The notes beneath the pieces were generated by a model that did no database searches, was not told the DNA's origin, and saw only the letters and a list, made by a program, of their open reading frames with translations. From NCBI GenBank assembly GCA_019455105.1, contig JACFMZ010000003.1, positions 4,895-67,926 on the forward strand: 63,032 nt of DNA, read 5' to 3'. Of this stretch, positions 8,168 through 32,452 are shown in pieces (position 1 is the first letter of the stretch; each line of letters opens with the position of its first letter). The stretch is from Bacteroidota bacterium (lineage in GTDB: Bacteria; Bacteroidota; Ignavibacteria; UBA10030; UBA8401). The position numbers were made by a program, and so were the translations under genes.

Positions 8168-9355
8168 CTATTCATAAATATAGATACTGGCAACAATTGG
8201 GTCGAACTGGTGGTGGGAAATAATTCGTTCAATATGATGCAAGCTCATTACCGTATCTTTTGTAAGAAGTTTTGTTCCGCTGCCGGTGCTTAAATCGGCG
8301 GCAAGTTTCATTCCCGGAATAAGATCGTTAACACCAACGGCTCTCTTTCCGATAAGCCAATCTTTTTCTTCGACAACCAGAAAAAATTCTTCCACCAGCT
8401 GAGTGATAACAGGATCCAGTATAGAACCTCGAACTTTTTTTAATGCATTTAAGAGAGAATCTTTTGTTTGAAATTTATCGCTGTTATGCTCAATAAAGTT
8501 TATTGCCCGCAGCACTCGAGCGCCGACAGGAATTTCTTCTCCCATTAATTTATCCGGATACCCCGAACCATCGAAGTTTTCCATCTGGTGGCGGATTAAA
8601 ACAGTAACATCGTGAAGTTTGGGTATTTTTGACAACAGTGATTCGCCGGCAAGCGGATATTGCATTCGCTCCTGCGGTTCATGGAAAGCTTTTTTCTCTT
8701 CCGGCTGCGCATCAAAGATTGCAATTTTTCCGATTTCGTGCAGCGCCGCCGCACTGGTGAGAAGCTGCTGTTCTTCAGGGGCGAGCGACAATTTTTTTCC
8801 AACCCAGTCAATAATTTTCTGCGCTTGTTCGGCACGTTTTACCGCACCCGGCACGTGAATGCCGATAAGAAGCGTGAGAAGATTTAAAACTCCGCTGTAA
8901 CTTTCTTCAAGAATAATATTTGTTTCTGCCAGTTTCTTTTTTTCTGCTTTAAGGTCTTCTTGTAATTTTACCGTACGAAAACTTGCCCGCACGCGGGATA
9001 ACAGCTCTTCCGGAAAAATAGGTTTTGAAATAAATTCATCTGCGCCGCTGTCTAATCCTTTAACTTTGTCATCAACACCGGTAGCAGCGGTCAAAAGAAT
9101 AAACATTCCTTCGCGAAGAATCGGGTGTTCTTTAATTTTTTTACAGAGTTGAATGCCGTCAAGTCCCGGCATATAATAATCGGAAATAATTATTTGCGGC
9201 GATTGTAATTCCGCCAGGCGCAGAGCATCAGTTCCGCTTTGCGACGTGATAACCGAATAATTTTTATCTCCGTGTAATATTTGCGCAATCAACAAGAGCT
9301 GTGTTGCGTCGTCATCTACCACTAAGATTGTGCACTTTTTATTGTTGTCCGTCAT
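8168..9355 (-). CDS. response regulator with REC domain and HD-GYP-type output domain (variant HD motif)
   Basis: REC: 'ILVVDDD...ISDYYMPGLDG...KP'. Output domain: 'LHEIGK' and 'HQMENFDGSGYP'. The start overlaps the motB stop by 17 nt. Confidence 0.85.
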   Translation of the reverse strand: MTDNNKKCTILVVDDDATQLLLIAQILHGDKNYSVITSQSGTDALRLAELQSPQIIISDYYMPGLDGIQLCKKIKEHPILREGMFILLTAATGVDDKVKGLDSGADEFISKPIFPEELLSRVRASFRTVKLQEDLKAEKKKLAETNIILEESYSGVLNLLTLLIGIHVPGAVKRAEQAQKIIDWVGKKLSLAPEEQQLLTSAAALHEIGKIAIFDAQPEEKKAFHEPQERMQYPLAGESLLSKIPKLHDVTVLIRHQMENFDGSGYPDKLMGEEIPVGARVLRAINFIEHNSDKFQTKDSLLNALKKVRGSILDPVITQLVEEFFLVVEEKDWLIGKRAVGVNDLIPGMKLAADLSTGSGTKLLTKDTVMSLHHIERIISHHQFDPIVASIYIYE

Positions 9356-10109
9356 ATTTCACCAGAATGCTGATTCTGCGATTTGTGAGATCAAAAGGAT
9401 CTGCCGTGTTTCTTAACCGCGTATCGGCGTATCCTCGAATTTCATCTAATTGTTTGTTGTGTAATCCATTTGTCATTAAAATACGCCGCGCACTGTTGGC
9501 GCGGTCGGCGCTGAGTTCAAAGTTTGTATATCCCGCAGTATTGGAATACGGGCGCGCATCGGTGTGTCCTTCAATGACGACATGATTTTTTATATTGCCG
9601 AGATTTTCCGCAATAGCTTTAAGAATATCAACCGCTTCCGGTTTTAGGTTTGCCGTACCGACATCAAAAAAGAATGCCTGAGACGATTCAACAAGTTCTA
9701 TTCTCATTCCCTCTTTTGTAAATTCAATTTTAATCTGCTTGGAGAGATCTTTTAAATTGGGAATGCGGGAAACATCATCGAGAATTTTCTTTGCAACATC
9801 CTGCATTGCTTTTTCCTGGCGTTTCAGCATTTCATCGCTTATGCGTTCGCCAAGTTCTATTTCTTGTTTCTCAAACGCTCCGCCTCCTTTGGTATTTTCA
9901 AAAAATGCGCCGGGGTCTTTAAAATAATTTGCAATATATTCTTTTACTTGTTTACTTTGACCGACGATCCACAGCACAATAAATAATGCCATCATTGCCG
10001 TTACAAAATCGGCATACGCCACCTTCCAGGCGCCGCCATGATGGCCTCCGTGATGTTTTTTTACTTTCTTAACAATTCTAATAGGTGTTTCTTTAATCTG
10101 CTGCTTCAT
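9339..10109 (-). CDS. motB: flagellar stator protein MotB (OmpA-like C-terminus)
   Basis: 'AWKVAYADFVTAMMALFIVLW' TM segment with the conserved Asp. OmpA-like 'IEGHTDARPY...ELSADRANSARRIL'. Confidence 0.9.
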   Translation of the reverse strand: MKQQIKETPIRIVKKVKKHHGGHHGGAWKVAYADFVTAMMALFIVLWIVGQSKQVKEYIANYFKDPGAFFENTKGGGAFEKQEIELGERISDEMLKRQEKAMQDVAKKILDDVSRIPNLKDLSKQIKIEFTKEGMRIELVESSQAFFFDVGTANLKPEAVDILKAIAENLGNIKNHVVIEGHTDARPYSNTAGYTNFELSADRANSARRILMTNGLHNKQLDEIRGYADTRLRNTADPFDLTNRRISILVKYDGQQ

Positions 10110-10112
10110 AAT

Positions 10113-10976
10113 TTACTTTGCCGCCTTTAAAGTTTTCACCGCATCTTCTAATTCACGGAACGTCGGTCTGAAATCGTTAAAAATAACTCTTCGTGCAAAT
10201 TCAACAACAATCATGGGGGCATTGCCTTTTGCGTAAGAAAGAACGCCGACTTTAATGCATTCGAGATACCGCATTTCCGACTGATGGGTAATTTCCAAAT
10301 TAGTTGTCAAAGGACCGATAAATCCGTAGGACATTAACACGCCGAGAAATGTTCCGACTAAAGCGGCGGCAACTTTCATTCCGACTTCTTCCGGCGGACC
10401 GTCAATTGCCTGCATGGTGATAATAATTCCCAATACGGCGGCAACAATTCCAAGACCCGGAAGCGCATCTCCCATTTTCTGTAAAATGCCGGGAGCTTGG
10501 GAACCTTCAATTAATGTTGTCTCTGCATCGGCATCCAAAATTGCTTCCAAATCATGAGCCGGAACTCCGCCGCTGAGAAGAATTTTTAAAGTATCGGTTA
10601 AATAATACAGTGCATGGTGATTTTTTAGCAGAAACGGATTTTTCGAAAAAATTGTACTGCTTTCCGGTTTTTCAATATGCTGTTCAATGTTCATTAAACC
10701 ATCGCGGGTGGCAATGTTAAAAAGTTCAAACATTGTCTTCAGTAAATTAAGATATTCTTCTTTTGTGTACGGGTCCCCTTTGAGCAGCGACATTAAGTTG
10801 CCGGCAAGGTGTTTTAAAATTCGAGGCGGCGCGCTGACAAGCATTGAGCCGATAGCGGCTCCGCCGATAATTAAGAATTCATTTACCTGAACCAACACTG
10901 CCAGCGGTCCTTCGTGCATAACAAATCCGCCGAGAACACACGCAATAACGACAACAATTCCGATAATGACAAACAT
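10113..10976 (-). CDS. motA: flagellar stator protein MotA
   Basis: Four-TM MotA/TolQ/ExbB architecture. 'ALPGLGIVAAVLGIIITM' and 'ALVGTFLGVLMSYGFIGP' are present. Confidence 0.9.
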   Translation of the reverse strand: MFVIIGIVVVIACVLGGFVMHEGPLAVLVQVNEFLIIGGAAIGSMLVSAPPRILKHLAGNLMSLLKGDPYTKEEYLNLLKTMFELFNIATRDGLMNIEQHIEKPESSTIFSKNPFLLKNHHALYYLTDTLKILLSGGVPAHDLEAILDADAETTLIEGSQAPGILQKMGDALPGLGIVAAVLGIIITMQAIDGPPEEVGMKVAAALVGTFLGVLMSYGFIGPLTTNLEITHQSEMRYLECIKVGVLSYAKGNAPMIVVEFARRVIFNDFRPTFRELEDAVKTLKAAK

Positions 10977-10994
10977 TGTTTAATCCTTTTTTCG

Positions 10995-11249
10995 TTACCG
11001 TGAAGGTTGTTTTGTTTTTGATTGTTGTTTTAAGAATTTGATAGTCGATGATAACACTTCTTTTGAAGTCTGTGCCGCTTCTTTATTTTGCTGCTGAATT
11101 TGTTCATACACTTCTGCTCGAAATATTTTAATTTCTTTCGGAGCTTCAATGCCAAGGCGTACCTGCCCGTCTTGCACACCGAGTACTTTAATAGAAATAG
11201 TATCGCCGATTTTTATTACTTCTTCAATTTTTCTGCTGAGAATAAGCAT
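10995..11249 (-). CDS. csrA: carbon storage regulator CsrA
   Basis: 'MLILSRKIEEVIKIGD...IKVLGVQDGQVRLGIEAPKEIKIFRAEVYEQI' is the canonical CsrA sequence pattern. Confidence 0.95.
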   Translation of the reverse strand: MLILSRKIEEVIKIGDTISIKVLGVQDGQVRLGIEAPKEIKIFRAEVYEQIQQQNKEAAQTSKEVLSSTIKFLKQQSKTKQPSR

Positions 11250-11251
11250 GG

Positions 11252-11665
11252 CTACCCCGCTAATGAGTCTGTTAATAAGAGAAGCGGGGTTCGTACATCC
11301 AACGCCTCATCATCAAGAATAATTTGTTTTCCCGTTCGATCTTCGTTATTGATAAGCAGCGGACTTTTCAAATTAACCGTTGAGGTCTCAATATGTTCGT
11401 TAATAGAAGCAACGACAAAGAGCGTAACATCTTTTCCTTGAACATATTGTTCGTTGAACTGCGCGTGTACCATTGAAGGTTCAATCAGCGGAAAACTTAA
11501 TTCCGGATCTTCAAGGGAAACAAGCCAGCGAAACGGTTCACTCGATTCATCATTAACAATGATAAACTTTTTATTTTCTTCAAACCCGATGATGCCGCCG
11601 GGAAAGTGAAGAATATGTTTCTCTTCAAATTCAAACTCTCCAAAAATTCTGTTCGTCCATTTCAT
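11252..11665 (-). CDS. fliW: flagellar assembly factor FliW (CsrA antagonist)
   Basis: 'ILHFPGGIIGFE...FIIVNDESSEPFRWLVSLEDPELSFPLIEP' is a FliW signature. Adjacent to csrA. Confidence 0.9.
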   Translation of the reverse strand: MKWTNRIFGEFEFEEKHILHFPGGIIGFEENKKFIIVNDESSEPFRWLVSLEDPELSFPLIEPSMVHAQFNEQYVQGKDVTLFVVASINEHIETSTVNLKSPLLINNEDRTGKQIILDDEALDVRTPLLLLTDSLAG

Positions 11666-11670
11666 AGTTC

Positions 11671-12408
11671 TTACTCCCCGTGTAATGCTTGTTGTCGTTG
11701 TTGGTTAAGTGTCTGCGTTAACTGCGACATTAATATCACAATATCTACTCTTCTATTCAATGCCCGGTGTGCTTCCGTATCGTTCGGCGCTACCGGTTTA
11801 TTCTCTCCATAGCCGACGACCGAAACTCTCTCCGGGTCTAGCTGATATTTATCCATCATATAAAACGCAGTGTTAATTGCCCTGCCGACGGAAAGATGCC
11901 AATTAGAAGGAAATGCCGCCGAATGAATCGGAACATTATCCGTATGACCTTCCACGCGAATTTCATTCGGAAGCGTGGATAATACTTTGGCTAAAGAATC
12001 TAACGTTTGATACGAACTTCTTTTCAATTGAGATTCGCCGGATGAAAATAATAATTCTTCCTGAATATGAACCGTAACACCCCGCTCATTCATTGTTACC
12101 GAAATGCGCGAATCGCCGTTTTTAATGCCGAGTGATTCATCCAGCAATTTTTCTATTCGCAATTGTTCTTCAAATCCTTCCAGCAAACCTTTTTGCCCGA
12201 TTCCTTTCTGCAAATCTAACGTGTTTGAACCGAACACTCCGCCGAAGGCTTCGACTAACTGCGCATATTTTTTTGTGTCAATGTTCGACATTGCGTACAG
12301 AATAACAAACAATCCGAGCAGCAGCGTAATTAAATCGGAATACGTGAGCAGCCAGCGATCGCTTCCTGATTCTTCTGCATGTTTCTTATTCTTTTTTCTC
12401 ATTGCCAT
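11671..12408 (-). CDS. second MotB/PomB/MotS-family stator protein (OmpA-like)
   Basis: 'RWLLTYSDLITLLLGLFVILY' with the conserved Asp. 'VEGHTDNVPI...NWHLSVGRAINTAFYM...ALNRRVDIVI'. Confidence 0.85.
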   Translation of the reverse strand: MAMRKKNKKHAEESGSDRWLLTYSDLITLLLGLFVILYAMSNIDTKKYAQLVEAFGGVFGSNTLDLQKGIGQKGLLEGFEEQLRIEKLLDESLGIKNGDSRISVTMNERGVTVHIQEELLFSSGESQLKRSSYQTLDSLAKVLSTLPNEIRVEGHTDNVPIHSAAFPSNWHLSVGRAINTAFYMMDKYQLDPERVSVVGYGENKPVAPNDTEAHRALNRRVDIVILMSQLTQTLNQQRQQALHGE

Positions 12409-13180
12409 CGATAGATTGTAATTCTTTAGGAAGCATACTGTTCAACTTCGAGCGAATAATGGAAGGAATTTCTCCTTCTTGAATTCCGACGATACCTTCG
12501 GTTACTAAATCCATAAAAATTTGTTCTTCCGCGTCAATGCTTCGCAGTTTATCCGCAATGGGAAGCCAGACAAGATTTGCCATGAACACGCCCCACAACG
12601 TAGCAATAAATGCCGTGGCAATGTGTTGAATTAATTTCGTCGGGTCTTCACCGGCATTTGCCAGTGTTGCAATCAATCCCATTACCGTTCCGATAATTCC
12701 CATGGTCGGCGAATAGCCCCCCATACGTTGAAACAGAGAAATATGTTTTTCATGTCGTTCACTGACATACTGCGCTTCTGTTTCGGCAATGGAACGAAGA
12801 ACCTGAATATCAATTCCGTCAATTGTATACCGCAGAAGTTTTAACAAAAACGGATCGCTGACTGCCGACAAATGTTTTTCAAGAACCAACAAACCTTCTT
12901 TTCGCGCTACCATAGAAAATTCCACAATGGAATTTATAATAGAGCGGTAATCTCGTTCCGGCGGCCGTATAGTAATCATTATCAGCGTAAAAAATTTTTT
13001 CATTATCGCCAGCGGCGTGCCGATCATTGCTGTGGCAAATGTACCGCCGAAGACGATTAACATTGCCGGCAGAAGAATCAGCGCTCCAATCTCTCCGCCT
13101 TCCAAAAGAAATGAGCCGAAGATGGCAAGAAGCCCTATGGTTAACCCCCCGACGGTTCCGATATCAAATTTTCTTTTCAT
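12386..13180 (-). CDS. second MotA/PomA/MotP-family stator protein
   Basis: MotA/TolQ/ExbB-type TM pattern. 'SPTMGIIGTVMGLI' and 'AFIATLWGVFMANLVWLPIADKL' are present. Confidence 0.85.
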   Translation of the reverse strand: MKRKFDIGTVGGLTIGLLAIFGSFLLEGGEIGALILLPAMLIVFGGTFATAMIGTPLAIMKKFFTLIMITIRPPERDYRSIINSIVEFSMVARKEGLLVLEKHLSAVSDPFLLKLLRYTIDGIDIQVLRSIAETEAQYVSERHEKHISLFQRMGGYSPTMGIIGTVMGLIATLANAGEDPTKLIQHIATAFIATLWGVFMANLVWLPIADKLRSIDAEEQIFMDLVTEGIVGIQEGEIPSIIRSKLNSMLPKELQSIDGNEKKE

Positions 13181-19907: not shown

Positions 19908-20651
19908 TTAAATTCTTCCGACTTCTAATGCTTTTTCCAGCGTACCGTCTTGGTAGCGCATTGTCCGCTGATCGGCTTCAAAACTTCTAGACAACTCAAC
20001 CAGTTGAATCATTTCTGAGAGCGATTGCACGTTGGATTCTTCAAGATAGCCCTGACGCAATGTGGTGTCGCTGTCATTATTTTTTATATCTCTTGGCGAT
20101 TCATCTGCTGCAAAGAGTGTTCCGCCGACCTTTAAAAGCTTTTGCATCTCTTGAAACTTTACAATTTTAATTTTCCCGATTTGGTTTTTACCAATATATA
20201 TTTCACCGTTTTTATTAATCGTAATATCGGTTTGTTGAATTGTTGAGGCATTCGGAATGGTAAGATGACCGCCGGTGCCGACAAGAAAATGTCCGTCGGA
20301 ATTGACAACATCGCCGCTGTCATCCAGTTTAAAATTTCCGTTACGCGTATAGCGCGGACCTTCGGGTGTTTCCAGCACAAAAAATCCGTTTCCCTGAATG
20401 GCAACATCCAGCGGATTGCTTGTCGGTCGAAACGAACCTTCGGAAAAATCGGTAAACTCTTTCACATCTAAACCGGCAAATTCGCCGGCTTCAGTGCTTT
20501 TGGCAATTCCGGCATTTTTTAATATCTGCACAAAAATATCGTTCTTCTTAAAACCTGTCGTATCGGCATTCGCAATATTGTTCGCCACAACATCCAGCTT
20601 CAATAAGCGCGGCTGCATTCCCGAACTTGATGAATAGATACCTTTAATCAT
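19908..20651 (-). CDS. flgF: flagellar proximal rod protein FlgF
   Basis: 'SGMQPRLLKLDVVANNIANADTTGFK', C-terminal 'LEESNVQSLSEMIQLVELSRSFE'. 247 aa. Confidence 0.85.
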   Translation of the reverse strand: MIKGIYSSSSGMQPRLLKLDVVANNIANADTTGFKKNDIFVQILKNAGIAKSTEAGEFAGLDVKEFTDFSEGSFRPTSNPLDVAIQGNGFFVLETPEGPRYTRNGNFKLDDSGDVVNSDGHFLVGTGGHLTIPNASTIQQTDITINKNGEIYIGKNQIGKIKIVKFQEMQKLLKVGGTLFAADESPRDIKNNDSDTTLRQGYLEESNVQSLSEMIQLVELSRSFEADQRTMRYQDGTLEKALEVGRI

Positions 20652-21676
20652 ACCGCTGCCTCCTGATCAATTTTTTTATTTTTCAGTTTAGAAATATTTG
20701 CCGCAAGATCAAGCTCGCCGACGGAGACGCCGAGTTTTTTTGCGGTGATAATTTTTTCTGTTTTATTTTCTTTCCGGTTTTTCACTAACTGTGCGCCGTT
20801 CTTTTTTATCATTTGAATTTCAGATTTTTCAAACCATGCGCGAAGTTCCGCTTCCCCCTGCATACGAAGTGTCTCTTCTTCTGCGTGTTCTTCATCGCGT
20901 TCTTCTTCATACCATTCGCCGGAGTGTACTTTCACAGGTTCTGCATTGTTTCGCTGAACAACTTCAGTCGCACGCGCAAGATTTTCTTCAAACTTTACCG
21001 CCGGCATTCTATTGTTACCATTTATTTTTTCAGAACGCCGGTGTTTAAGAATAAAGACATACATTAATGAACCGGTGCCGAGCGCCAAAACCAAAAATGT
21101 AATACCCACTAACCCAAAAGCGCCGCCGGCACTCAACGTGTTCGGAATTTTCGGCTCCACGGAAATTTCCGCGGCAGCGATGATTTTTTGAACTTCTGCC
21201 GGCGCGGCTGCCGGTGTATCATTACTGCCGGATTCTAACGCGATTTTTGGAATATCCAGAACCGGCGCTGCCTTCGGCTGCTCTTGTTTCTTTTTTACGA
21301 TAAGTTTTTTCTGCGGATAGAAATCAATGATAATACGGTTCGCCCCTTCTTCTTGAAATATTTTATACTCCGTCTCTGCGCTTCGTAATTGCAGTGCAAT
21401 ATTTTCGCTTCCATCCGGATCGGCACGCATAATAAATTGTTTTACCGTTCCGTCGTTAAAATTATACGTTGCATTTTTTACTATAAAATCCGCCGGTTTT
21501 CCGAGCAGCGAAATTTGCATAGATGTTCCGTTTCGCATTTCCTTCCATTCAACGGCGCCGCGCACGGCAATAACAATGCGGTGATATTCCGGACGCACGG
21601 TATAGGTTAACGGTAAGTTTCCCGCCGGAAGGAAACAATACAAGAGCAGAACAAAAAATATTAAACGTGTTTTCAT
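20648..21676 (-). CDS. uncharacterised bitopic membrane protein with an AMIN-like periplasmic domain
   Basis: Start set at ATG 21676 (MKTRLIFFVLLLYCF), which overlaps the kinase stop as ATGA. The roughly 110-aa N-terminal domain ends in 'ANRIIIDFYP' (AMIN-like). One TM segment ('FGLVGITFLVLALGTGSLMYVFIL'). Charged cytoplasmic tail. ATGA overlap with flgF. Confidence 0.6.
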   Translation of the reverse strand: MKTRLIFFVLLLYCFLPAGNLPLTYTVRPEYHRIVIAVRGAVEWKEMRNGTSMQISLLGKPADFIVKNATYNFNDGTVKQFIMRADPDGSENIALQLRSAETEYKIFQEEGANRIIIDFYPQKKLIVKKKQEQPKAAPVLDIPKIALESGSNDTPAAAPAEVQKIIAAAEISVEPKIPNTLSAGGAFGLVGITFLVLALGTGSLMYVFILKHRRSEKINGNNRMPAVKFEENLARATEVVQRNNAEPVKVHSGEWYEEERDEEHAEEETLRMQGEAELRAWFEKSEIQMIKKNGAQLVKNRKENKTEKIITAKKLGVSVGELDLAANISKLKNKKIDQEAAV

Positions 21677-23058
21677 GCTTTCTTCATCGTCCTTTGTAAT
21701 GGAAGGTAAATGGTAAAGGTTGTTCCTTTTCCAAGCTCGCTGGTTACTTTTATTTCGCCGCGATGATTGGTAATAATTTTTTTGCAAATCGATAAGCCGA
21801 GTCCCGTTCCTTTTCCTTCTTCTTTTGTCGTAAAGAAAGGAGCAAAAAGCTGCGTCATATTTTCTTCGGCAATTCCTACGCCGGTATCGGAAATATGAAT
21901 CTGCAGCTGGAAATCTTTTACTTCCGTTGCCAATCTCAGCGCTCCTCCTTCAGGCATGGCATCGCGGGCATTAATGAGCAGATTGAGAAATACCTGCTGA
22001 AGCTGTTGTGCGCTTCCTTGAATGCCCGGAAGTTTTTCGGAAAGCGCGTATTCTACGGTAATTCTTTTTGTCTGCAAGTCATGTTCAATAATATCGCCGA
22101 TGAATTTCAATTCCCGATTCACATCAACAATATCCTGAAGGCTTTCTTCGCTGAAGCCGCGCGAGAAATTCATTAAGCGGCGCGTAATTTCCGCCAAACG
22201 CTGAATTTGTTTCTGAAGCATCGGCAGCGCATCTTCGCCTCCCTTGCCCATCATAATAATTTCTATCTGCATGGAGAGAATTTGAATCGGATTTTTTATT
22301 TCGTGCACAATACTGGCGGCAAGTTCGCCTAACGCAACAAGTTTTGCCACCTGCAGCATTTGTGATTGATATGATTTTAATTCGTTGTTGGCTTTTACTA
22401 ACTGCATCTGCGTCCGCCAGTTTTCAACGCCGACCGCCGCCTGATTTGCCAGCACGGTAAGAAGCTGAATATCCTGATGCGAAAATTCTTCCTGCTTCTT
22501 TTCAGTATGAATCATATACACGCCGATTCCCTGACCGCGCAGCATCAGCGGAACCATGACATAATTTTTTGTTGCGCCGTTTTTCATTAAGTGCGAAAGG
22601 TCGGGAATGATAACGGTTTTTTTCTCGGAAAAAATCCAGTCAACAATTCCGGCTTCCAAATGCTGCTGCGCTTCTCTTTCCAGCTCCGCCGAGCCGTGCG
22701 CCGTTAACGGAACCAGACGTCTGGTGGTGCTGTCAAACAAAAAGATAGAAGCTTCAATAACAGGAATAACCTGCTCGGTTAATTCAATTAAAGTTTTAAT
22801 AATGGAATTCGGTTCCTGCGCCGTGCCGATAATATTGGAAAGCCGCTGCATTGCCACCAGCTCATCAATAGAAGTTTTTATATCTCCCTGTTGATTCACA
22901 ATATGCTGATGTTCGCCGACCACCGCTTTTAATGTTTTTTCCAGCGCCTGAATATAGCTTTCCCGGCTTTCAATAAACTTTTCGAACTGCGGCACAACGC
23001 TTTCAAGAATTTCTTCTCTGGATTGTTTTGCCGCGTGATTTTCTTCAATTGATTTCAT
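21673..23058 (-). CDS. cytoplasmic sensor histidine kinase with GAF domain
   Basis: No TM segment. GAF-like region (aa ~85-215). H-box 'LAASIVHEIKNPIQIL'. N/G boxes 'LINARDAM', 'DTGVGI', 'GTGLGLSI'. Confidence 0.85.
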   Translation of the reverse strand: MKSIEENHAAKQSREEILESVVPQFEKFIESRESYIQALEKTLKAVVGEHQHIVNQQGDIKTSIDELVAMQRLSNIIGTAQEPNSIIKTLIELTEQVIPVIEASIFLFDSTTRRLVPLTAHGSAELEREAQQHLEAGIVDWIFSEKKTVIIPDLSHLMKNGATKNYVMVPLMLRGQGIGVYMIHTEKKQEEFSHQDIQLLTVLANQAAVGVENWRTQMQLVKANNELKSYQSQMLQVAKLVALGELAASIVHEIKNPIQILSMQIEIIMMGKGGEDALPMLQKQIQRLAEITRRLMNFSRGFSEESLQDIVDVNRELKFIGDIIEHDLQTKRITVEYALSEKLPGIQGSAQQLQQVFLNLLINARDAMPEGGALRLATEVKDFQLQIHISDTGVGIAEENMTQLFAPFFTTKEEGKGTGLGLSICKKIITNHRGEIKVTSELGKGTTFTIYLPLQRTMKKA

Positions 23059-23060
23059 AA

Positions 23061-23954
23061 TTAAAAATTCGCTAAATGAGAAAGTAAGGCAACATCACGG
23101 GTATCTTTTTTTACTAAATCGGAATATTCTTTTACATATTCCTGAATCAATTCTTCATCGTTTAATTGTAATATCTCCAGTGCATCCGGGTGAAATTCAA
23201 TTCCTTTATCAAATTCAATCTCTTCGCCGGAAATTAATTTTGCAAACACATCCGCGCAGTGAATAATTGATACCAACTGCGAATGTTCTTTTGCTTCGCC
23301 CGGATTGTGGTGATAGCGGATTGCTTCCACCAAATGGTCCGGAAGATTCCAGCGTTCGCCGAGCCAGCTGCCGATAACGGCATGCGTAACGGGAAACACG
23401 CTTTCCTCGGCTTCAAAAAATGTTAATTTACTGTCCCGCACAATTTCAATCATCCGGTGAAATTCCGGCGTGAAATATTTATTGAGAATAGAAATTCCCA
23501 TATCGTGAAGCAGTCCGGCAACGAACACTTCACCCGTTACGCGGTAGCCGACATCGCGGGCAAGACGGCGGGCAATAACACCGGTGCCGATTGCGTGATC
23601 CCAAAATAATTGAGAGTTAAAATACAAATCGTTTTTCTTTTGCAGAGAACTGACCAGCGCAATACTGATGACAATCTCCTTTAATGCGTCGAAACCGAGA
23701 ACGATAATGGCAAAATCAATCGTCGATATTTTTTTGGGAAATCCGTAGAACGGCGAGTTCGCTATTTTTAAAACTTTTGCGGTCAGCGCCTGGTCGGTCG
23801 AAATCAGCCTGCCCAATTGCTGCGCGCTCGTTTTCGGATTGTCAACCATTTCCACAATATCCATGGCAATAGCCGGCATTGCGGGAAGTTGAATAATGGT
23901 TTTTACGCGCTCTTGAATTTGTTCGGAAGTCAATATTTGTCGTACTGCGCTCAT
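23061..23954 (-). CDS. HDOD-domain signalling protein
   Basis: 'LPAMPAIAMDIVEMVDNPKTSAQQLGRLISTDQALTAKVLKIANSPFYGF' followed by 'GLLHDMG' is a typical HDOD pattern. Confidence 0.8.
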   Translation of the reverse strand: MSAVRQILTSEQIQERVKTIIQLPAMPAIAMDIVEMVDNPKTSAQQLGRLISTDQALTAKVLKIANSPFYGFPKKISTIDFAIIVLGFDALKEIVISIALVSSLQKKNDLYFNSQLFWDHAIGTGVIARRLARDVGYRVTGEVFVAGLLHDMGISILNKYFTPEFHRMIEIVRDSKLTFFEAEESVFPVTHAVIGSWLGERWNLPDHLVEAIRYHHNPGEAKEHSQLVSIIHCADVFAKLISGEEIEFDKGIEFHPDALEILQLNDEELIQEYVKEYSDLVKKDTRDVALLSHLANF

Positions 23955-24674: not shown

Positions 24675-24884
24675 TTATGCAAGCTTTTCTGCTTCATTGG
24701 TTTCTTTGGGTTTCACCGTCATCATAGAGGCGACAAAAACAACGCCAAGCAGTGCGCCGATGGTGGCAATAAAGACGACAAAGGCTTTTGCGATAATTTC
24801 CACAATATCCATTCCCATTGAGGCATACACTACCGCCGTAACGCAAAATGCCAGCAAGCCGATTTGAAAAATAATTTTATTCAT
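24675..24884 (-). CDS. small two-TM membrane protein (uncharacterised)
   Basis: 69 aa with two hydrophobic helices. ATGA overlap with the flhG stop. Ends 7 nt before the fliA start. Confidence 0.5.
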   Translation of the reverse strand: MNKIIFQIGLLAFCVTAVVYASMGMDIVEIIAKAFVVFIATIGALLGVVFVASMMTVKPKETNEAEKLA

Positions 24885-25741
24885 ACATACACCGTTGAAG
24901 TTTGTGGTTCTTCCATTGCCTCTTCAAGCAGCAAACGCTGAGCCGCCGCCTGAATGCACAACGCGGAAGATGATATCGGATATTTTTTTAATAATGGTAT
25001 CTGCGCCTTCACTGAATCGGCAACGCTTTCATCAAACGGAATAAAGCCGATGTAAACAATTTCCTGCTTCAAAAAATGTTCTGCGGCTTTTTGTAATTTC
25101 TGCGCCGCTTCTTCGCTTTCCAATGGTTGGTGCACATTGTTCATAATAAGGTTGAAACGAGCGCCGTGAACTTTCCGGGAAATTATTTTTACTGCCGCGT
25201 ACGCATCCATTATTGCCGTCGGTTCAGAATTTGAAATGAGCACAATATCGTTGGCATACGATGCATACTGAAGAACATCATCCCGAAGTCCCGCCGCCGT
25301 GTCAAAAATAATATCGGAAAATTCATGCGTGCTGCCGACCATTCCGGAATAAAGATAATCTCTATCCGAAGCAGAGATTTCAGCATATTCAAACGAACCG
25401 GAATTTCCGCACATCATAAAAACATTTCGTGAACTTTGATACACGGCATCATCAATGGAAGTTTTTCCTAACAGGATATCGTTTATTCTGTACTTCGGCG
25501 CCGCGCCGGTGAGAACATCAAGCTTTCCAAGATTTTCATCCGCATCCACCAGTAAAACTTTTCGCCCGCTCTTTGCCAATGTCATTGCCATACCAACAGC
25601 AAAAACACTTTTCCCGACTCCGCCTTTACCGCTCACAATCGTCCAAACATGAGGCAGCGCCGGATTGGCAACGGATTCTCTCTTCGACATTAAGGTGCGA
25701 AGATGGTCCGCTTGATCGTATGACAATGATAAATTATGCAT
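24881..25741 (-). CDS. flhG: MinD/ParA-type ATPase FlhG (FleN/YlxH)
   Basis: Deviant Walker A 'VSGKGGVGKSVFAVGMA'. Position after flhF. Confidence 0.9.
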   Translation of the reverse strand: MHNLSLSYDQADHLRTLMSKRESVANPALPHVWTIVSGKGGVGKSVFAVGMAMTLAKSGRKVLLVDADENLGKLDVLTGAAPKYRINDILLGKTSIDDAVYQSSRNVFMMCGNSGSFEYAEISASDRDYLYSGMVGSTHEFSDIIFDTAAGLRDDVLQYASYANDIVLISNSEPTAIMDAYAAVKIISRKVHGARFNLIMNNVHQPLESEEAAQKLQKAAEHFLKQEIVYIGFIPFDESVADSVKAQIPLLKKYPISSSALCIQAAAQRLLLEEAMEEPQTSTVYV

Positions 25742-27020
25742 GTGCTAATATTCCTTGATATAACATAGCGGCAAACTTTGTGCCATTAGCAGCGCAAATA
25801 TCATCAGGAACTGACTGTCCTAGAGTGAAAAATGAAACCGGTAATTTTGTTTTCTGCATAATATTATACAGTGGACCAAAAGTAACCGCCTCATCGAGTT
25901 TTGATAAAATTAAATGCGTGGGTTCTAAAATTTTATATTCTTTAACAATAGATTGAAGCGTTGCCGTATTGCTTTGACTGCCGGTCACAAGATGAACTTC
26001 CGTAGCATGCGCAGCTTCTACCATTTTCTTTAATTCCAGTAATTCCTTCTTTGCACGATGACTTCTGCCGACAGTATCAATCAGCACAACATCGGCGCGG
26101 TTGATTTTTTTTAATGCGGCGGGAAGTTCAGAAGAACGATAAACAACCTGCATCGGAATATCGGCAATGGAAGCAAAGGTCTTTAATTGTTCAATAGCGC
26201 CGATTCGGTACGTGTCACATGTTATCAGCGCAACAGATTTGTTGTTCACTAACTTTTCAATAGCCGCCAGCTTTGCAATGGTTGTTGTTTTTCCGACTCC
26301 CGTCGGTCCGACCAACGCAATAATTTTTCGCTTTGCTGTTTTTGCGGAAGATTGCTGCACCGGAAATTTTTCTGCTAACAATTGCAGAACTAAAGTATCG
26401 GCGCTTACGGGAGAATCTTTTCGGCTGCGGGAAAGTTTTTTTTCTATTTCACTGGTAATATCCAAAACATATTTTTCTTCCACATCCTGCTGAAGCAGCG
26501 TGAGATAAATATCTTTCACAGAATCCGGCAGCTGCCCGAAACTTTTATATTGAAGCTGGCGGGAAAGAGTCGTCAGCATCGATTTCATATCTTCCACATC
26601 CGACTTTAACTGCACAATTTCTCCGGCATCTTTTACCTGCTGCGGAAGAGCTTTCATGGGAGTTTTTTCTGTTTCTCTTTCTTCAAAAGCTTCGGTCATT
26701 TTCCGCAGACTTTCAATAACGTCTTCCGGTTTCGATTCGTTGTTAGCAATTGCCTCTTTCATCGCCTTATCATACGAATGACGCACCGCATGTTTTGAAT
26801 AGGTCGGCTGAAACTTCGTCAATGATTTTTCATCATTTAACGGATGAGGAAGCTCATCAATAGCGGCGGTAATTTCAACGCGCTCTTTACCGATTGTTTT
26901 CAACAAAGAATTTTTCGGCAGTTTTCTGGTGTGTAAAATAATGGCTTCAGGACCGAGTTCCTGTTTCATTTGCTCGGTGGCTTCTTTTAAGCTCTCCGCT
27001 ACATATTTTTTAATTTGCAT
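25734..27020 (-). CDS. flhF: SRP-type GTPase FlhF
   Basis: 'LVGPTGVGKTTTIAKLAA', 'DTVGR' and 'SKLDE' G-motifs. Position after flhA. Confidence 0.92.
   Translation of the reverse strand: MQIKKYVAESLKEATEQMKQELGPEAIILHTRKLPKNSLLKTIGKERVEITAAIDELPHPLNDEKSLTKFQPTYSKHAVRHSYDKAMKEAIANNESKPEDVIESLRKMTEAFEERETEKTPMKALPQQVKDAGEIVQLKSDVEDMKSMLTTLSRQLQYKSFGQLPDSVKDIYLTLLQQDVEEKYVLDITSEIEKKLSRSRKDSPVSADTLVLQLLAEKFPVQQSSAKTAKRKIIALVGPTGVGKTTTIAKLAAIEKLVNNKSVALITCDTYRIGAIEQLKTFASIADIPMQVVYRSSELPAALKKINRADVVLIDTVGRSHRAKKELLELKKMVEAAHATEVHLVTGSQSNTATLQSIVKEYKILEPTHLILSKLDEAVTFGPLYNIMQKTKLPVSFFTLGQSVPDDICAANGTKFAAMLYQGILAHA
25771..25785 (-). promoter_or_regulatory. sigma-54-type -24/-12 element inside the 3' end of flhF, upstream of flhG
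   Basis: The minus strand reads TGGCAC-AAAGT-TTGC. The -12 GC lies 30 nt upstream of the flhG ATG, and AAGGAA is positioned as a Shine-Dalgarno sequence. Confidence 0.45.
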
Positions 27021-31255: not shown

Positions 31256-32008
31256 TTAATGAAAACTTGAAATAAGCGAACCGATAACCAGATGCCAGCC
31301 ATCCACCAGAATAAAAAGAAGAATTTTAAACGGCAGAGATACCATACTCGGCGGCAGCATCATCATACCCATAGACATTAAAATGCTGGCAACAATTAAA
31401 TCGATAATGAGAAACGGCACGAACAAGATAAACCCGATTTGAAACCCGATGCGCAATTCACTAATGGCAAACGCCGGAACCAGAACTTGAAGCGGAATAT
31501 CGGCGCGCGTTTCCGGTTTGGGCATGCTGTTCATTTTCACAAACAGCGCCAGATCTTCTTCACGGGTTTGCTTCATCATAAATTCCCGCAGCGGCACAAC
31601 GGCTTTTTCATACGCCTGGGTGGTGGTAATTTTATGATTCATATACGGTTGAATTGCCGTGGTATTCATAACATCCCATACCGGCGCCATTACAAAGAAC
31701 GTTAAAAACATTGCCAGCCCGACGAGAATCTGCGCCGGAGGCATTTGCGGCGTTCCCATTGCCTGTTTTAAAAAGTGAAGCACAACAATAATGCGCGTAA
31801 ATGCCGTGGTGAGAATTAAAATTGCCGGCGCTAACGAAAGAATCGTCATTAAAAACAGTATCTGCAGCGTTACGGAAACATCTTCCGGCTTGGAAGATTT
31901 TCCGACTTCAATATTCACTTTCGGCAGAGGAAGCTGCGGGTTCTGCGCGCTGACAAAATTGTAGCAGAAAAAAGCGACGATAAGAATTAAAAGAATTTTT
32001 TTACCCAT
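31256..32008 (-). CDS. fliP: flagellar export protein FliP
   Basis: Signal peptide. 'TILSLAPAILILTTAFTRIIVVLHFLKQAMG' and 'FLIIDLIVASILMSMGMMMLPP' are present. Confidence 0.95.
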   Translation of the reverse strand: MGKKILLILIVAFFCYNFVSAQNPQLPLPKVNIEVGKSSKPEDVSVTLQILFLMTILSLAPAILILTTAFTRIIVVLHFLKQAMGTPQMPPAQILVGLAMFLTFFVMAPVWDVMNTTAIQPYMNHKITTTQAYEKAVVPLREFMMKQTREEDLALFVKMNSMPKPETRADIPLQVLVPAFAISELRIGFQIGFILFVPFLIIDLIVASILMSMGMMMLPPSMVSLPFKILLFILVDGWHLVIGSLISSFH

Positions 32009-32451
32009 TGCGCCAATCTCTGTCTGCGTTCCTGCAATAACGGTGTGAATGATTGCTCGGCACTATTTTTCGACTGCGCGGCAGCACTCCCCATGAGCGT
32101 ACCAAGATCCGGCAGACGGAAAAAAATACTTTGCGAACTGTTTGAAATTGACGGCACTGAAGTTGATTCAAATTCTGTTGAAGCACGCACCACTTCCTCC
32201 CCATCCATTTCCCCCAAGACTGTTAAGCCGTTTTCTGCAGAGCCGAGAACGTACACCGTATTTAATACTTTCACCACGTGAATTGCCCGCTTCGGGGTAA
32301 GATTTTTTTGCCCGAGAACATCAATTGCCACTTTGTGATTTTTCTGCGGGGAAAAAAGACCGACATATTTTTTCATGAGTTTGCTGATGCCGAACATTAA
32401 GGCGATGACTACGCCGAGAGATGCCAGCATTTGTACGACGAGCATTGTCAT
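31987..32451 (-). CDS. fliO: FliO/FliZ-like flagellar biosynthesis protein
   Basis: Single N-terminal TM segment. Position between fliN and fliP. Start set at ATG 32451, 1 nt after the fliN stop. Confidence 0.5.
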   Translation of the reverse strand: MTMLVVQMLASLGVVIALMFGISKLMKKYVGLFSPQKNHKVAIDVLGQKNLTPKRAIHVVKVLNTVYVLGSAENGLTVLGEMDGEEVVRASTEFESTSVPSISNSSQSIFFRLPDLGTLMGSAAAQSKNSAEQSFTPLLQERRQRLAQWVKKFF

Positions 32452-32452
32452 A

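What the first reader, a model, noticed from the sequence alone, without database searches (positions are those of the whole stretch)
20648..21676. AMIN-like bitopic membrane protein translationally coupled between the kinase and flgF
The 342-aa protein has a signal/anchor sequence and a periplasmic domain of about 110 aa with an AMIN-like pattern that ends in 'RIIIDFYP'. These are followed by a Pro/Ala linker, one TM helix and a highly charged cytoplasmic tail of about 130 aa.

Both junctions are ATGA overlaps, with the kinase upstream and flgF downstream.

AMIN domains (AmiC, PilQ) tether proteins to peptidoglycan at specific sites. A flagellar-operon AMIN protein could be an unrecognised basal-body, stator-scaffold or polar-landmark component, functionally analogous to FlgT/MotX/PflA-type accessories.
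Basis: inference. Interest (0 to 1): 0.7.

Follow-up and report, generated by a model that had tools for sequence, protein, structure and literature searches.

The report
AMIN-anchored FipA-like flagellar membrane protein
This is a real, previously unnamed membrane protein in an Ignavibacteria-type flagellar gene cluster; it has a probable cell-wall-binding (AMIN-fold) domain outside the membrane and, inside the cell, a duplicated short motif resembling the part of the Vibrio protein FipA that recruits the flagellum-placing GTPase FlhF.

Summary
Window 20648-21676 (minus strand) encodes a 342-aa protein: signal peptide, ~100-aa beta domain, Pro/Ala/Lys linker, one TM helix and a charged helical tail. 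ATGA overlaps join it to the upstream GAF histidine kinase and to flgF.

The N-domain is AMIN-like by structure: pLDDT is 93-97, and the top Foldseek hits are the AmiC and PilQ AMIN domains. By sequence it is sub-threshold in Pfam.

This is a duplicated cytoplasmic unit (AEQYxRxQGExELAxRL / AKKLGVGxGELDLAxKL). Across 46 family C-termini, 14 hit Pfam DUF6115 and 8 hit DUF2802, the FlhF-binding domain of FipA. One positional orthologue passes the DUF6115 cut-off.

In FlgF-anchored metagenome loci, a family member sits between the kinase and flgF in 36 of 36 cases. Its architecture ranges from a 105-aa form (TM plus one motif) to the AMIN form, so AMIN is a lineage-specific add-on.

Best reading: a peptidoglycan-pinned, FipA-like membrane adaptor that docks a cytoplasmic flagellar factor. 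FlhF has the best precedent; the co-inherited kinase/HDOD pair is the main rival. The function is untested. I rate it a new variant of a known kind.

The parts
20648..21676 (-). Whole gene: 342-aa type-I bitopic membrane protein (P0001), including the stop codon
21620..21676 (-). Sec-type signal peptide, residues 1-19 (MKTRLIFFVLLLYCFLPAG); no lipobox
   Evidence: Hydropathy; homologues have AxA-like cleavage sites and no conserved Cys
21311..21619 (-). Periplasmic AMIN-fold beta-sandwich domain, residues 20-122
   Evidence: AF2 with MSA gives pLDDT 93-97 and 9 strands. Foldseek top hits are AmiC 4bin (E 6.4e-4) and PilQ AMIN 4aqz/4av2. Pfam is sub-threshold: PF24837 E 0.037; PF11741 E 0.032 in P0019
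21128..21310 (-). Low-confidence Lys/Pro/Ala-rich periplasmic linker, residues 123-183
   Evidence: pLDDT below 50; 17% mean pairwise identity
21236..21265 (-). Conserved periplasmic motif within the linker (PVLDIPKIAL; family consensus hVDIPxhhxxQhE)
   Evidence: Alignment A1; 36% mean pairwise identity against 17% for the linker
21047..21127 (-). Single transmembrane helix, residues 184-210, followed by KHRR
20825..20890 (-). Cytoplasmic repeat unit 1, residues 263-284 (…LRMQGEAELRAWFEK; family consensus AEQYxRxQGExELAxRL)
   Evidence: 47% mean pairwise identity; hhalign of unit 1 against unit 2 gives prob 95.4%, E 1.9e-8
20687..20749 (-). Cytoplasmic repeat unit 2, residues 310-330 (ITAKKLGVSVGELDLAANISK). 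A helix-turn-helix-like motif and the most conserved part of the family; A312, G316, G320, E321 and L324 are nearly invariant
   Evidence: DUF6115 / DUF2802 / HTH_8 similarity
21673..21676 (-). ATGA overlap: stop of the GAF-HisKA-HATPase kinase / start of the target
   Evidence: In relatives this junction is a 1-3 nt gap or a 4-nt overlap
20648..20651 (-). ATGA overlap: target stop / flgF start. Present at every junction of a long-form orthologue seen, except L052 (GTGA)
20659..20664 (-). AGGAGG Shine-Dalgarno sequence for flgF, embedded in the target's last codons (…DQEAAV)
21673..23058 (-). Upstream partner gene: soluble GAF + HisKA + HATPase_c histidine kinase
   Evidence: adjacent in 36 of 36 family loci
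23061..23954 (-). HDOD-domain protein, co-inherited with the kinase and the target
19908..20651 (-). Downstream gene flgF (proximal rod)
24881..27020 (-). flhF (25734-27020) and flhG (24881-25741), candidate cytoplasmic partners in the same operon

Best explanation
The gene encodes an inner-membrane adaptor. After signal-peptide cleavage, an AMIN-fold domain sits in the periplasm, one helix crosses the membrane, and about 130 cytoplasmic residues carry two copies of a short helix-turn-helix-like unit (A-x-x-[LY]-G/R-x-x-x-G-E-x-x-L-A-x-[KR]-L).

Shown:
- The conserved core of the family is the TM helix plus the cytoplasmic unit(s).
- The AMIN domain is a lineage-specific N-terminal addition.
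- The unit is remotely similar to Pfam DUF6115 and to DUF2802. DUF2802 is the domain through which the gammaproteobacterial membrane protein FipA binds FlhF and helps bring it to the pole.

Inferred:
- The cytoplasmic units dock a soluble flagellar assembly or regulatory protein at the membrane. FlhF, encoded four genes upstream, is the partner with the best precedent.
- The AMIN domain pins the adaptor to peptidoglycan at a defined site. By analogy with AmiC and PilQ, that site would be septal or new-pole peptidoglycan, which would fix where the MS-ring and export gate are seeded.
- One polypeptide would thus combine what gammaproteobacteria split between HubP/FimV (peptidoglycan-binding domain, TM, cytoplasmic region) and FipA (TM, DUF2802).
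- Tight translational coupling to flgF makes it together with the rod proteins.
For: Architecture and topology.

AMIN fold: with sub-threshold Pfam hits in the same region in two members.

The cytoplasmic units are the most conserved parts and are an internal duplication.

C-terminal regions of 46 family members scanned against Pfam:
- 14 hit DUF6115 (best E 1.4e-7).
- 8 hit DUF2802 (best E 1.8e-5).
- No other Pfam family is hit by more than 2 members.

The positional orthologue L052:5457-5996 (TM + 2 units) scores 31.4 bits on DUF6115, above the 27-bit cut-off. It scores E 1.1e-4 on DUF2802, and the family HMM matches it at E 2e-12.

The matches fall on the C-terminal end of the DUF2802 profile (positions 48-68), where the family's invariant E-x-x-L lies. 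FipA's conserved E126/L129 have the same spacing, and L129A abolishes FlhF binding (PMC11620751).

Like fipA, the gene lies downstream of flhA-flhF-flhG-fliA. Every family locus that reaches far enough upstream has flhF/flhG.

The architecture series runs from a 105-aa form (TM + 1 unit), through a 179-aa form (TM + 2 units) and a form with a disordered periplasmic segment, to the AMIN form, all at the same locus.

AMIN domains target AmiC to the septum and PilQ to future division sites (PMC12403147; PMC5285504).
Against: The window protein itself has no Pfam hit to DUF2802 or DUF6115 at E<=1. The link is transitive and rests on a motif of about 25 residues. Helix-turn-helix-like motifs can also converge.

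I could not obtain real DUF2802 or DUF6115 sequences for a profile-profile test.

No function is published for DUF6115.

FlhF/FlhG also occur in 8 or more loci that lack the family. The family instead co-varies perfectly with the HDOD/GAF-kinase pair, which points to a different partner.

AMIN is absent in many orthologues, so peptidoglycan anchoring cannot be essential to the core function.

No localisation, binding or phenotype data exist. The flagellation pattern of the source organism is unknown.
Confidence: 0.4

Rival explanations
1. It is a membrane anchor or co-sensor for the co-inherited signalling pair. The cytoplasmic units would dock the soluble GAF histidine kinase (and/or the HDOD protein) at the membrane near the flagellar base. 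This would couple envelope or assembly state to phosphorylation of a response regulator, for example the REC-HD-GYP protein at the end of the cluster. The logic is comparable to Campylobacter FlgS sensing MS-ring and export-gate assembly.
For: In the FlgF-anchored sample, a family member is present in 36 of 36 loci where the HDOD/GAF-kinase genes are adjacent, and in 0 of 18 loci where they are not.

The kinase stop and the target start overlap or lie 1-3 nt apart in every locus.

The kinase has no TM segment and is a GAF-HisKA-HATPase protein. A REC-HD-GYP protein closes the cluster.
Against: The co-occurrence may reflect a single ancestral insertion of a three-gene cassette into a wholly syntenic cluster, so it is weak evidence for physical interaction.

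A FipA-like 162-aa TM protein with the same motif lies between fliA and flgF in L074, a lineage without the kinase. That similarity is itself weak: hhalign prob 31%, E 5e-4.

The nearest characterised relative of the motif (DUF2802) binds FlhF, not a kinase.
Confidence: 0.25
2. It is an activator or chaperone of flagellar type III secretion. It would act as a membrane protein transiently at the export gate (FlhA/FlhB/FliPQR), like AMIN-bearing FliO in Campylobacter (which stabilises FlhB) or the monotopic SwrB of Bacillus subtilis (which activates export). The AMIN domain would stabilise the nascent complex in the wall.
For: It has the same topology as AMIN-FliO: periplasmic AMIN, TM, cytoplasmic part (PMC12403147). 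It is encoded downstream of flhB-flhA. SwrB is likewise a single-pass protein encoded after the sigma-28 gene at the end of the fla/che operon (for the papers; the operon position is from my own knowledge). It is coupled to flgF, an early export substrate.
Against: The cytoplasmic part is helical, not the FliO beta-sheet core. A canonical FliO (PF04347) is encoded at 31990-32463. I could establish no sequence link to SwrB. SwrB's cytoplasmic domain is described as poorly conserved, whereas here the cytoplasmic motifs are the conserved part.
Confidence: 0.12
3. It is a periplasmic basal-body or stator scaffold. The AMIN domain would bind peptidoglycan, and the linker with its VDIP motif would contact the rod, the P-ring or MotB. 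It would be functionally analogous to MotK, PflA or FlgT.
For: The domain has the AMIN fold. A conserved periplasmic motif, hVDIPxhhxxQ, is present. The gene sits directly before flgF-flgG-flgA-flgH-flgI. MotK and PflA set a precedent for AMIN domains in motor scaffolds.
Against: The periplasmic part is replaced by low-complexity sequence, or is absent, in many positional orthologues. The strongest constraint is on the cytoplasmic motifs. The protein has no TPR or other scaffold domain.
Confidence: 0.1
4. It is a membrane-tethered transcription regulator or an anti-sigma-28 factor. The C-terminal helix-turn-helix-like units would bind DNA or FliA and be released or sequestered according to envelope state.
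For: There are weak hits to HTH_8 (E 0.0046-0.0062) and HTH_7 (E 4.7e-4) on the motif. The gene lies three genes downstream of fliA. No FlgM was recognised among the cluster genes I scanned.
Against: The motif has two helices, not a complete three-helix DNA-binding domain. The topology (N-terminus out, C-terminus in, with a cleaved signal peptide) is opposite to that of classical anti-sigma factors and of ToxR-type regulators. In FipA, the related DUF2802 mediates protein-protein contact.
Confidence: 0.05

Closest known systems
FipA (DUF2802, PF10975), the FlhF interaction partner of Vibrio, Shewanella and Pseudomonas (PMC11620751)
   Same: - Both are bitopic membrane proteins encoded downstream of the flhA-flhF-flhG-fliA operon and found only alongside FlhF/FlhG.
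- Both have a cytoplasmic C-terminal helix-turn-helix-like motif, …LGxxxGExxL…, with an invariant E-x-x-L.
- 8 of 46 family C-termini hit DUF2802 (best E 1.8e-5), and the hits fall on the profile's C-terminal end.
- The minimal orthologues (105 aa: N-terminal TM, coiled region, motif) have FipA's architecture.
   Different: - The window protein does not reach any DUF2802 threshold.
- It has a cleaved signal peptide, a periplasmic AMIN domain and a long linker before the TM helix.
- The motif is duplicated.
- The lineage is the FCB group (Ignavibacteria-type), not Gammaproteobacteria.
- It is always next to an HDOD protein and a GAF kinase rather than che genes.
- FlhF binding is untested.
DUF6115 (PF19610), an uncharacterised family
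   Same: This is the strongest sequence link. 14 of 46 family C-termini hit it (best E 1.4e-7). The positional orthologue in L052 passes the gathering score (31.4 bits against 27), with two matched stretches, one per repeat unit.
   Different: The window protein itself has no hit at E<=1. The match covers only the last ~40 positions of the 134-position profile. No literature exists on DUF6115, so the link adds homology but no function.
HubP / FimV polar landmark proteins
   Same: The design logic is the same: a periplasmic peptidoglycan-binding domain, a single TM helix, and a charged cytoplasmic region that recruits FlhF and other polar clients (PMC12826062 and PMC12918733).
   Different: The peptidoglycan-binding domain is AMIN, not LysM. 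There is no FimV C-terminal TPR motif and no long acidic repeat array. The protein is roughly a fifth of their size. No sequence similarity was detected. The resemblance is analogy only.
AMIN-bearing FliO of Campylobacterota and other phyla (PMC12403147)
   Same: It is a flagellar-operon protein with an N-terminal periplasmic AMIN domain, one TM helix and a cytoplasmic C-terminal part.
   Different: The cytoplasmic part here is helical with FipA-like motifs, not the FliO beta-sheet core. A separate canonical FliO is encoded at 31990-32463.
MotK (Cereibacter Fla2) and PflA (Campylobacter/Helicobacter) motor scaffolds
   Same: Both have an N-terminal AMIN-fold domain that was recognised only by structure comparison with AmiC and PilQ, in a flagellar accessory protein (PMC10954123; PMC12403147).
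   Different: Those proteins are wholly periplasmic and carry large TPR regions that act on stators. This one spans the membrane, has no TPR region, and is most conserved in the cytoplasm.

Membership tests
AMIN domain (Pfam PF11741 / AMIN-like PF24837) | Sequence match above the curated gathering score | tested here: not met
   Window protein: PF24837 E 0.037, 14.6 bits against a cut-off of 27, residues 75-119. P0019: PF11741 E 0.032, 14.7 bits against 20.5, residues 59-121. A family profile searched against PDB sequences finds no AmiC or PilQ.
AMIN domain (Pfam PF11741 / AMIN-like PF24837) | AMIN fold: a compact beta-sandwich of about 100 residues that superposes on the AmiC and PilQ AMIN domains | tested here: met
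   The AF2 model has pLDDT 93-97 over residues 20-120 and 9 strands. Foldseek ranks 1-3 are 4bin AmiC (E 6.4e-4, prob 1.00), 4aqz PilQ B2 (E 1.9e-3, TM-score normalised to the target 0.56) and 4av2 PilQ (rmsd 3.0 A over 105 columns). The M. xanthus PilQ entry 3jc8 also appears. Lower ranks are generic sHSP/CS sandwiches with rmsd above 10 A.
AMIN domain (Pfam PF11741 / AMIN-like PF24837) | N-terminal, extracytoplasmic location | tested here: met
   The signal peptide covers residues 1-19, the domain follows directly, and the TM helix at 184-210 is followed by KHRR.
AMIN domain (Pfam PF11741 / AMIN-like PF24837) | Binds peptidoglycan and confers septal or polar targeting | not testable with these tools
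   Needs peptidoglycan pull-down and localisation experiments.
FipA / DUF2802 (PF10975) | DUF2802 match above the gathering score (33.5 bits) | tested here: not met
   The window protein has no hit at E<=1. Best within the family: E 1.8e-5 in the scan of C-terminal 100-aa segments; the full-length L052 orthologue scores 22.8 bits, E 1.1e-4. 8 of 46 members hit at E<=1.
FipA / DUF2802 (PF10975) | Conserved G…E-x-x-L residues of the interaction motif (VpFipA G110, E126, L129) | tested here: inconclusive
   E321 and L324 are invariant or nearly invariant and have the same i, i+3 spacing. In P0004 they align to DUF2802 profile positions ~59 and ~62 (residues 323-343 against positions 48-68). These correspond to E126 and L129 only under an assumed gapless mapping of the profile onto VpFipA residues 68-135. 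I could not identify the equivalent of G110.
FipA / DUF2802 (PF10975) | Architecture: short N-terminus, one TM helix, then a cytoplasmic coiled region and a single DUF2802 | tested here: not met
   The window protein has a signal peptide, an AMIN domain and a 60-aa linker before the TM helix, plus two motif copies. The 105-aa positional orthologues (L068, L071, L076 and others) do have this architecture.
FipA / DUF2802 (PF10975) | Encoded downstream of the flhA-flhF-flhG-fliA operon; present only in genomes with FlhF/FlhG | tested here: met
   The window order is flhA-flhF-flhG-(69-aa ORF)-fliA-HDOD-kinase-target. The same order is seen in 13 of 13 genome loci (those long enough to show it) and in the metagenome loci.
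FipA / DUF2802 (PF10975) | Direct binding to FlhF and promotion of its polar localisation | not testable with these tools
   No complex-prediction tool or experiment was available.
DUF6115 (PF19610) | Match above the gathering score (27 bits) | tested here: inconclusive
   The window protein has no hit. The positional orthologue L052:5457-5996 scores 31.4 bits, E 2.9e-7, with two stretches. 14 of 46 family C-termini hit at E<=1, best 1.4e-7.
FliO (PF04347), including AMIN-FliO | TM helix followed by the conserved cytoplasmic antiparallel beta-sheet; one per flagellar system | tested here: not met
   There is no PF04347 hit. The cytoplasmic part is predicted all-helical. A canonical FliO is encoded at 31990-32463.
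HubP / FimV | Periplasmic LysM domain, acidic cytoplasmic repeats and the FimV C-terminal motif | tested here: not met
   No LysM or FimV-type Pfam hit in the window protein or in the other 26 members of alignment A1.
MotK / PflA-type AMIN scaffolds | AMIN domain followed by a large periplasmic TPR region; no cytoplasmic domain | tested here: not met
   There is no TPR hit, and the protein has a TM helix and a 130-aa cytoplasmic tail.

The most novel reading that the evidence does not exclude
DUF2802 (FipA), DUF6115 and this family would be branches of one ancient module: a membrane-tethered module, encoded in flagellar operons, that captures FlhF or another early assembly factor. On this reading, Ignavibacteria-type bacteria fused it to a septal/polar peptidoglycan-reading AMIN domain. 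The result would be a single-polypeptide 'HubP + FipA' landmark that pre-marks the new pole for flagellum assembly. It would be the first polarity determinant for flagella described outside Proteobacteria.
Probability: 0.22. Interest if true: 0.75.

Novelty: new variant of a known kind. Interest (0 to 1): 0.55.

Why it matters
How FlhF finds its site is an open question outside the gammaproteobacteria. The 2025 review PMC12826062 says landmarking beyond monotrichous species 'remains unclear'.

A FipA-like module in the FCB group, physically fused to a peptidoglycan-reading AMIN domain, would give a concrete and testable route from cell-wall geometry to flagellar placement. It would also suggest that FipA-type adaptors are much older and more widespread than the DUF2802 annotation implies.

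The finding attaches a lead to two Pfam 'domains of unknown function'. It also flags a conserved HDOD-kinase-adaptor triad inside flagellar superoperons that nobody has studied.

In practical terms, about 28 protein clusters now annotated only as 'hypothetical protein' can be given an architecture and a hypothesis.

Tried and rejected
**Searches that gave nothing useful**
- Word-indexed homology searches returned only the protein itself or fragments. The low-complexity tail swamps the index. One search found only frameshifted fragments of the same family at the same locus.
- NCBIfam gave no real hit. Single-sequence and profile searches of PDB sequences gave none either. The FliL hit at E 1.2 is driven by the TM segment.
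- The single-sequence AF2 model was too poor to use (pLDDT 58.9). Only the MSA-based model was used.
- A tblastn search of plasmids, meant to fish out annotated DUF2802/DUF6115 genes for a profile-profile test, found nothing. I had no other route to seed sequences.

**Hits rejected as spurious**
- P0016, from the phmmer list, is a repeat protein and was discarded.
- Hits to CD1107-like, FAM176 and similar Pfam families all lie on the linker and TM segment, which points to composition or TM bias.

**Ideas rejected**
- Second FliO: rejected (see the membership test).
- Lipoprotein: rejected. There is no lipobox, and the Cys at position 14 is not conserved.
- SwrB = DUF6115: I recalled this as a possibility but could not verify it, so I do not claim it.
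- L074's FipA-like protein as a family member: only hhalign prob 31%, E 5e-4 over 24 columns. I treat it as a hint.
Full report
**1. Observation**

The feature is a gene on the minus strand. The ATG is at 21676 and the TGA at 20650-20648, giving 342 aa. The mechanically longest ORF starts at a TTG 37 codons upstream, inside the kinase gene. All homologues begin directly after the kinase stop with M-K-x and a signal peptide, so the 342-aa reading is right.

The + strand reads TCAT at both 21673-21676 and 20648-20651, so both ATGA overlaps exist.

| Residues | Feature |
|---|---|
| 1-19 | signal peptide |
| 20-122 | beta domain ending in RIIIDFYP |
| 123-183 | Lys/Pro/Ala linker |
| 184-210 | TM helix, followed by KHRR |
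| 211-342 | helical tail, 38% charged |

There is no lipobox.

**2. Context**

The gene sits in a single-strand flagellar and chemotaxis supercluster of about 43 kb. The gene order is:

cheR-cheY-cheY-cheZ-cheA-cheB … flgB-flgC-fliE-fliF-fliG-fliH-fliI-fliJ-(MgtE_N)-fliK-flgD-(PF12611)-flgE-fliL-fliM … fliO-fliP … fliR-flhB-flhA-flhF-flhG-(69-aa ORF)-fliA-HDOD-GAF/HisKA kinase-TARGET-flgF-flgG-flgA-flgH-flgI-flgJ-flgN-flgK-flgL-motA-motB-fliW-motA-motB-REC/HD-GYP.

The target and the ORF at 46204-46608 are the only sizeable genes scanned here with no Pfam family.

The closest syntenic loci are in Ignavibacteriales and 'Bacteroidota' MAGs. Their neighbouring genes are 60-81% identical to the window's, but the target is only 24-35% identical. 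One distant member comes from a MAG labelled class UBA10030. Every copy that a source has named is called 'hypothetical protein'.

**3. The family**

Word-indexed searches saw only the protein itself. An exhaustive phmmer scan of 1.84 billion representatives found the query itself plus 27 other clusters at 50% identity, one of them spurious.

The alignment (A1) shows five conserved elements:
- a signal peptide;
- the beta domain;
- a short periplasmic motif, hVDIPxhhxxQhE;
- the TM helix;
- two cytoplasmic motifs, AEQYxRxQGExELAxRL and AxKLGVGxGELDLAxKL.

Mean pairwise identity by region is 0.56 for motif 2, 0.47 for motif 1, 0.36 for the VDIP motif, 0.29 for the beta domain and 0.12-0.17 for the linkers. 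The two cytoplasmic motifs are copies of one unit (hhalign prob 95.4%, E 1.9e-8). The 'charged tail' is therefore the most constrained part of the protein, not filler.

**4. The N-terminal domain**

With the family alignment, AF2 models residues 20-120 at pLDDT 93-97 as a nine-strand sandwich.

Foldseek against the PDB ranks the AMIN-containing AmiC structure first (4bin, E 6.4e-4, prob 1.00). The PilQ AMIN/B2 domain is second and third (4aqz, E 1.9e-3, TM-score normalised to the target 0.56; 4av2, rmsd 3.0 A over 105 columns). Lower ranks are generic sHSP/CS sandwiches with rmsd above 10 A.

Pfam gives only sub-threshold matches, but they fall in the right region:
- AMIN-like PF24837 in the window protein: E 0.037, 14.6 bits against a cut-off of 27.
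- AMIN PF11741 in P0019: E 0.032.

I conclude that the domain has the AMIN fold. Membership by curated sequence criteria is not met, and peptidoglycan binding is untested.

AMIN domains in flagellar accessories have precedent: AMIN-FliO and PflA (PMC12403147) and MotK (PMC10954123).

**5. The C-terminal module**

Scans of single members gave scattered weak hits:
- HTH_8, E 0.0046;
- DUF6115, E 0.028;
- DUF2802, E 0.3-0.65, on profile positions 48-68 or 15-68.

I then anchored an unbiased search on FlgF in metagenome contigs and analysed the 80 loci it returned. Wherever the HDOD and GAF-kinase genes precede flgF, the gene in between is a family member (36 of 36 loci). Its architecture varies:

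| Form | Architecture | Example loci |
|---|---|---|
| i | AMIN + TM + 2 units | L027, L039, L047, L059 |
| ii | signal peptide + low-complexity periplasmic segment without AMIN + TM + 2 units, 255-360 aa | L032-L038, L045, L058 |
| iii | N-terminal TM + 2 units, 179 aa | L052 |
| iv | N-terminal TM + basic coiled region + one unit (KSKKLGISTGEMILASKIQ), ~105 aa | L068, L071, L076, L077, L081, L084-L086 |

The L052 protein is matched by the family HMM at E 2e-12. It passes the Pfam gathering score for DUF6115 (31.4 bits against 27, E 2.9e-7, two stretches) and scores E 1.1e-4 on DUF2802.

I scanned 46 non-redundant family C-termini in one run. Fourteen hit DUF6115 (best E 1.4e-7) and eight hit DUF2802 (best E 1.8e-5). 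No other Pfam family was hit by more than two members.

The window protein itself gives no hit at E<=1, so its assignment is by family membership.

DUF2802 is the cytoplasmic domain of FipA. FipA is a 163-aa TM protein encoded after the flhA-flhF-flhG-fliA-che operon of Vibrio, Shewanella and Pseudomonas. It binds FlhF through conserved DUF2802 residues (the G110A and L129A substitutions abolish binding) and helps bring FlhF to the pole (PMC11620751; review PMC12826062).

The family's invariant E321-x-x-L324 falls where FipA's E126-x-x-L129 should lie. That placement assumes a gapless mapping of the profile onto FipA and is an inference.

No literature exists on DUF6115.

**6. What the architecture series implies**

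The conserved core is 'TM + FipA-like unit(s)'. The AMIN domain is an N-terminal addition carried by the Ignavibacteria-type branches. It is missing from some nested sub-lineages and from the outgroup with the minimal form.

This argues against a primarily periplasmic (scaffold) function and for a cytoplasmic docking function that AMIN modulates spatially.

**7. Coupling to neighbouring genes**

The target/flgF ATGA overlap is present at every long-form junction seen except L052, even between members that are about 20% identical.

A Shine-Dalgarno-like GGAG/GAGG/AGGA sits 6-12 nt upstream, inside the target's last codons, in 26 of 28 such junctions. In the window it is AGGAGG at 20659-20664. 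This probably explains the conserved acidic …KEE.. C-terminus.

The kinase/target junction is a 4-nt overlap or a 1-3 nt gap.

**8. Mechanism**

Best-supported reading (confidence about 0.4): the protein is a membrane adaptor. Its cytoplasmic helix-turn-helix-like units dock a soluble flagellar factor at the membrane, and its AMIN domain pins it to peptidoglycan. By analogy with AmiC and PilQ, that would be septal or new-pole peptidoglycan (PMC5285504; PMC12403147).

FlhF is the partner with the best precedent, from the FipA analogy, the shared operon position and co-occurrence with flhF/flhG. The protein would then merge the HubP/FimV logic and the FipA logic in one chain.

- Shown: the architecture, the fold, the conservation pattern, the synteny and the remote similarity.
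- Inferred: peptidoglycan binding, localisation, the identity of the partner and the effect on assembly.

**9. Rivals**

- **Anchor for the kinase pair (0.25).** The family co-varies perfectly with the HDOD/GAF-kinase pair (36 of 36 against 0 of 18), whereas flhF/flhG also occur in loci without it. It may therefore anchor that signalling pair. The caveat is that this could be a single inherited three-gene cassette. A FipA-like 162-aa protein also lies between fliA and flgF in a kinase-less lineage (L074), though the similarity is weak.
- **Export-gate activator or chaperone, like AMIN-FliO or SwrB (0.12).** The topology and position fit. The cytoplasmic fold differs, and a canonical FliO is present.
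- **Periplasmic scaffold (0.10).** The dispensability of the periplasmic part weakens this.
- **Membrane-tethered helix-turn-helix regulator or anti-sigma factor (0.05).**

**10. Verdict**

The protein is a new variant of a known kind: a FipA/DUF2802-DUF6115-like flagellar membrane adaptor with a fused AMIN domain. It belongs to an unannotated, fast-evolving family restricted to Ignavibacteria-type and neighbouring lineages.

I score interest at 0.55. The finding is a solid, testable lead on flagellar placement outside Proteobacteria, but its function rests on remote similarity and synteny only.

Noticed in passing
window 24675-24884 (minus strand); L020:1656-1898; L025:3779-4045: A 69-aa ORF with two hydrophobic segments lies between flhG and fliA and overlaps the flhG stop by 4 nt. 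It is conserved in distant relatives (80-88 aa, starting MNK[IV]IFQIGLL…) and has no Pfam hit on record. It may be another uncharacterised small membrane protein of the flagellar operon.
   Followed up: partly
window 20659-20664 (minus strand) and the equivalent junctions in L027-L064: The Shine-Dalgarno sequence for flgF (AGGAGG) lies inside the target's last codons. An SD-like motif is present in 26 of 28 loci with the ATGA junction. This dual-coding constraint probably explains the conserved acidic …KEE.. C-terminus of the family.
   Followed up: yes
window 21673-23954 and 8168-9355; loci L027-L086: An HDOD protein and a soluble GAF-HisKA-HATPase kinase are inserted between fliA and flgF. 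A REC-HD-GYP protein closes the cluster. The HDOD-kinase-adaptor triad is inherited as a unit: 36 of 36 loci with the adjacent HDOD/kinase pair carry the adaptor, against 0 of 18 without it. Some lineages carry two or three HDOD paralogues (L032, L047, L056).
   Followed up: partly
window 9339-13180: Two complete MotA/MotB stator pairs flank fliW (motA 12386-13180 and motB 11671-12408; motA 10113-10976 and motB 9339-10109). This suggests dual stators, possibly using different ions or serving different loads.
   Followed up: no
L074:4066-4554: A 162-aa protein has an N-terminal TM helix, a coiled-coil region and a C-terminal …GLSSEKIANRLGIAKGEVSLVLDL, which is FipA-like architecture. It lies between fliA and flgF in a lineage that lacks the HDOD/kinase pair. 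Similarity to the family is weak (hhalign prob 31%, E 5e-4). It hints that FipA-like adaptors at this operon position occur in several phyla.
   Followed up: partly
L009, L013, L007, L008 (record titles): Contigs carrying Ignavibacteria-type flagellar loci belong to MAGs labelled 'Synechococcus sp. UW140', 'Chitinophaga pinensis' and 'uncultured Chitinophagaceae'. These are probably mislabelled or mis-binned assemblies.
   Followed up: no
window 46201-46608 (minus strand): A 135-aa ORF with no Pfam family lies between cheB and flgB and overlaps the start of cheB. It may be real or a shadow ORF.
   Followed up: no
L022, L023: Long contigs from samples ERZ25039603 and ERZ25039461 carry the same locus, but many genes are split into fragments (flhA in three pieces, flgI in two). 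This looks like frameshift-rich long-read assembly. The 100-137-aa 'proteins' P0029-P0033 are C-terminal fragments of family members.
   Followed up: yes
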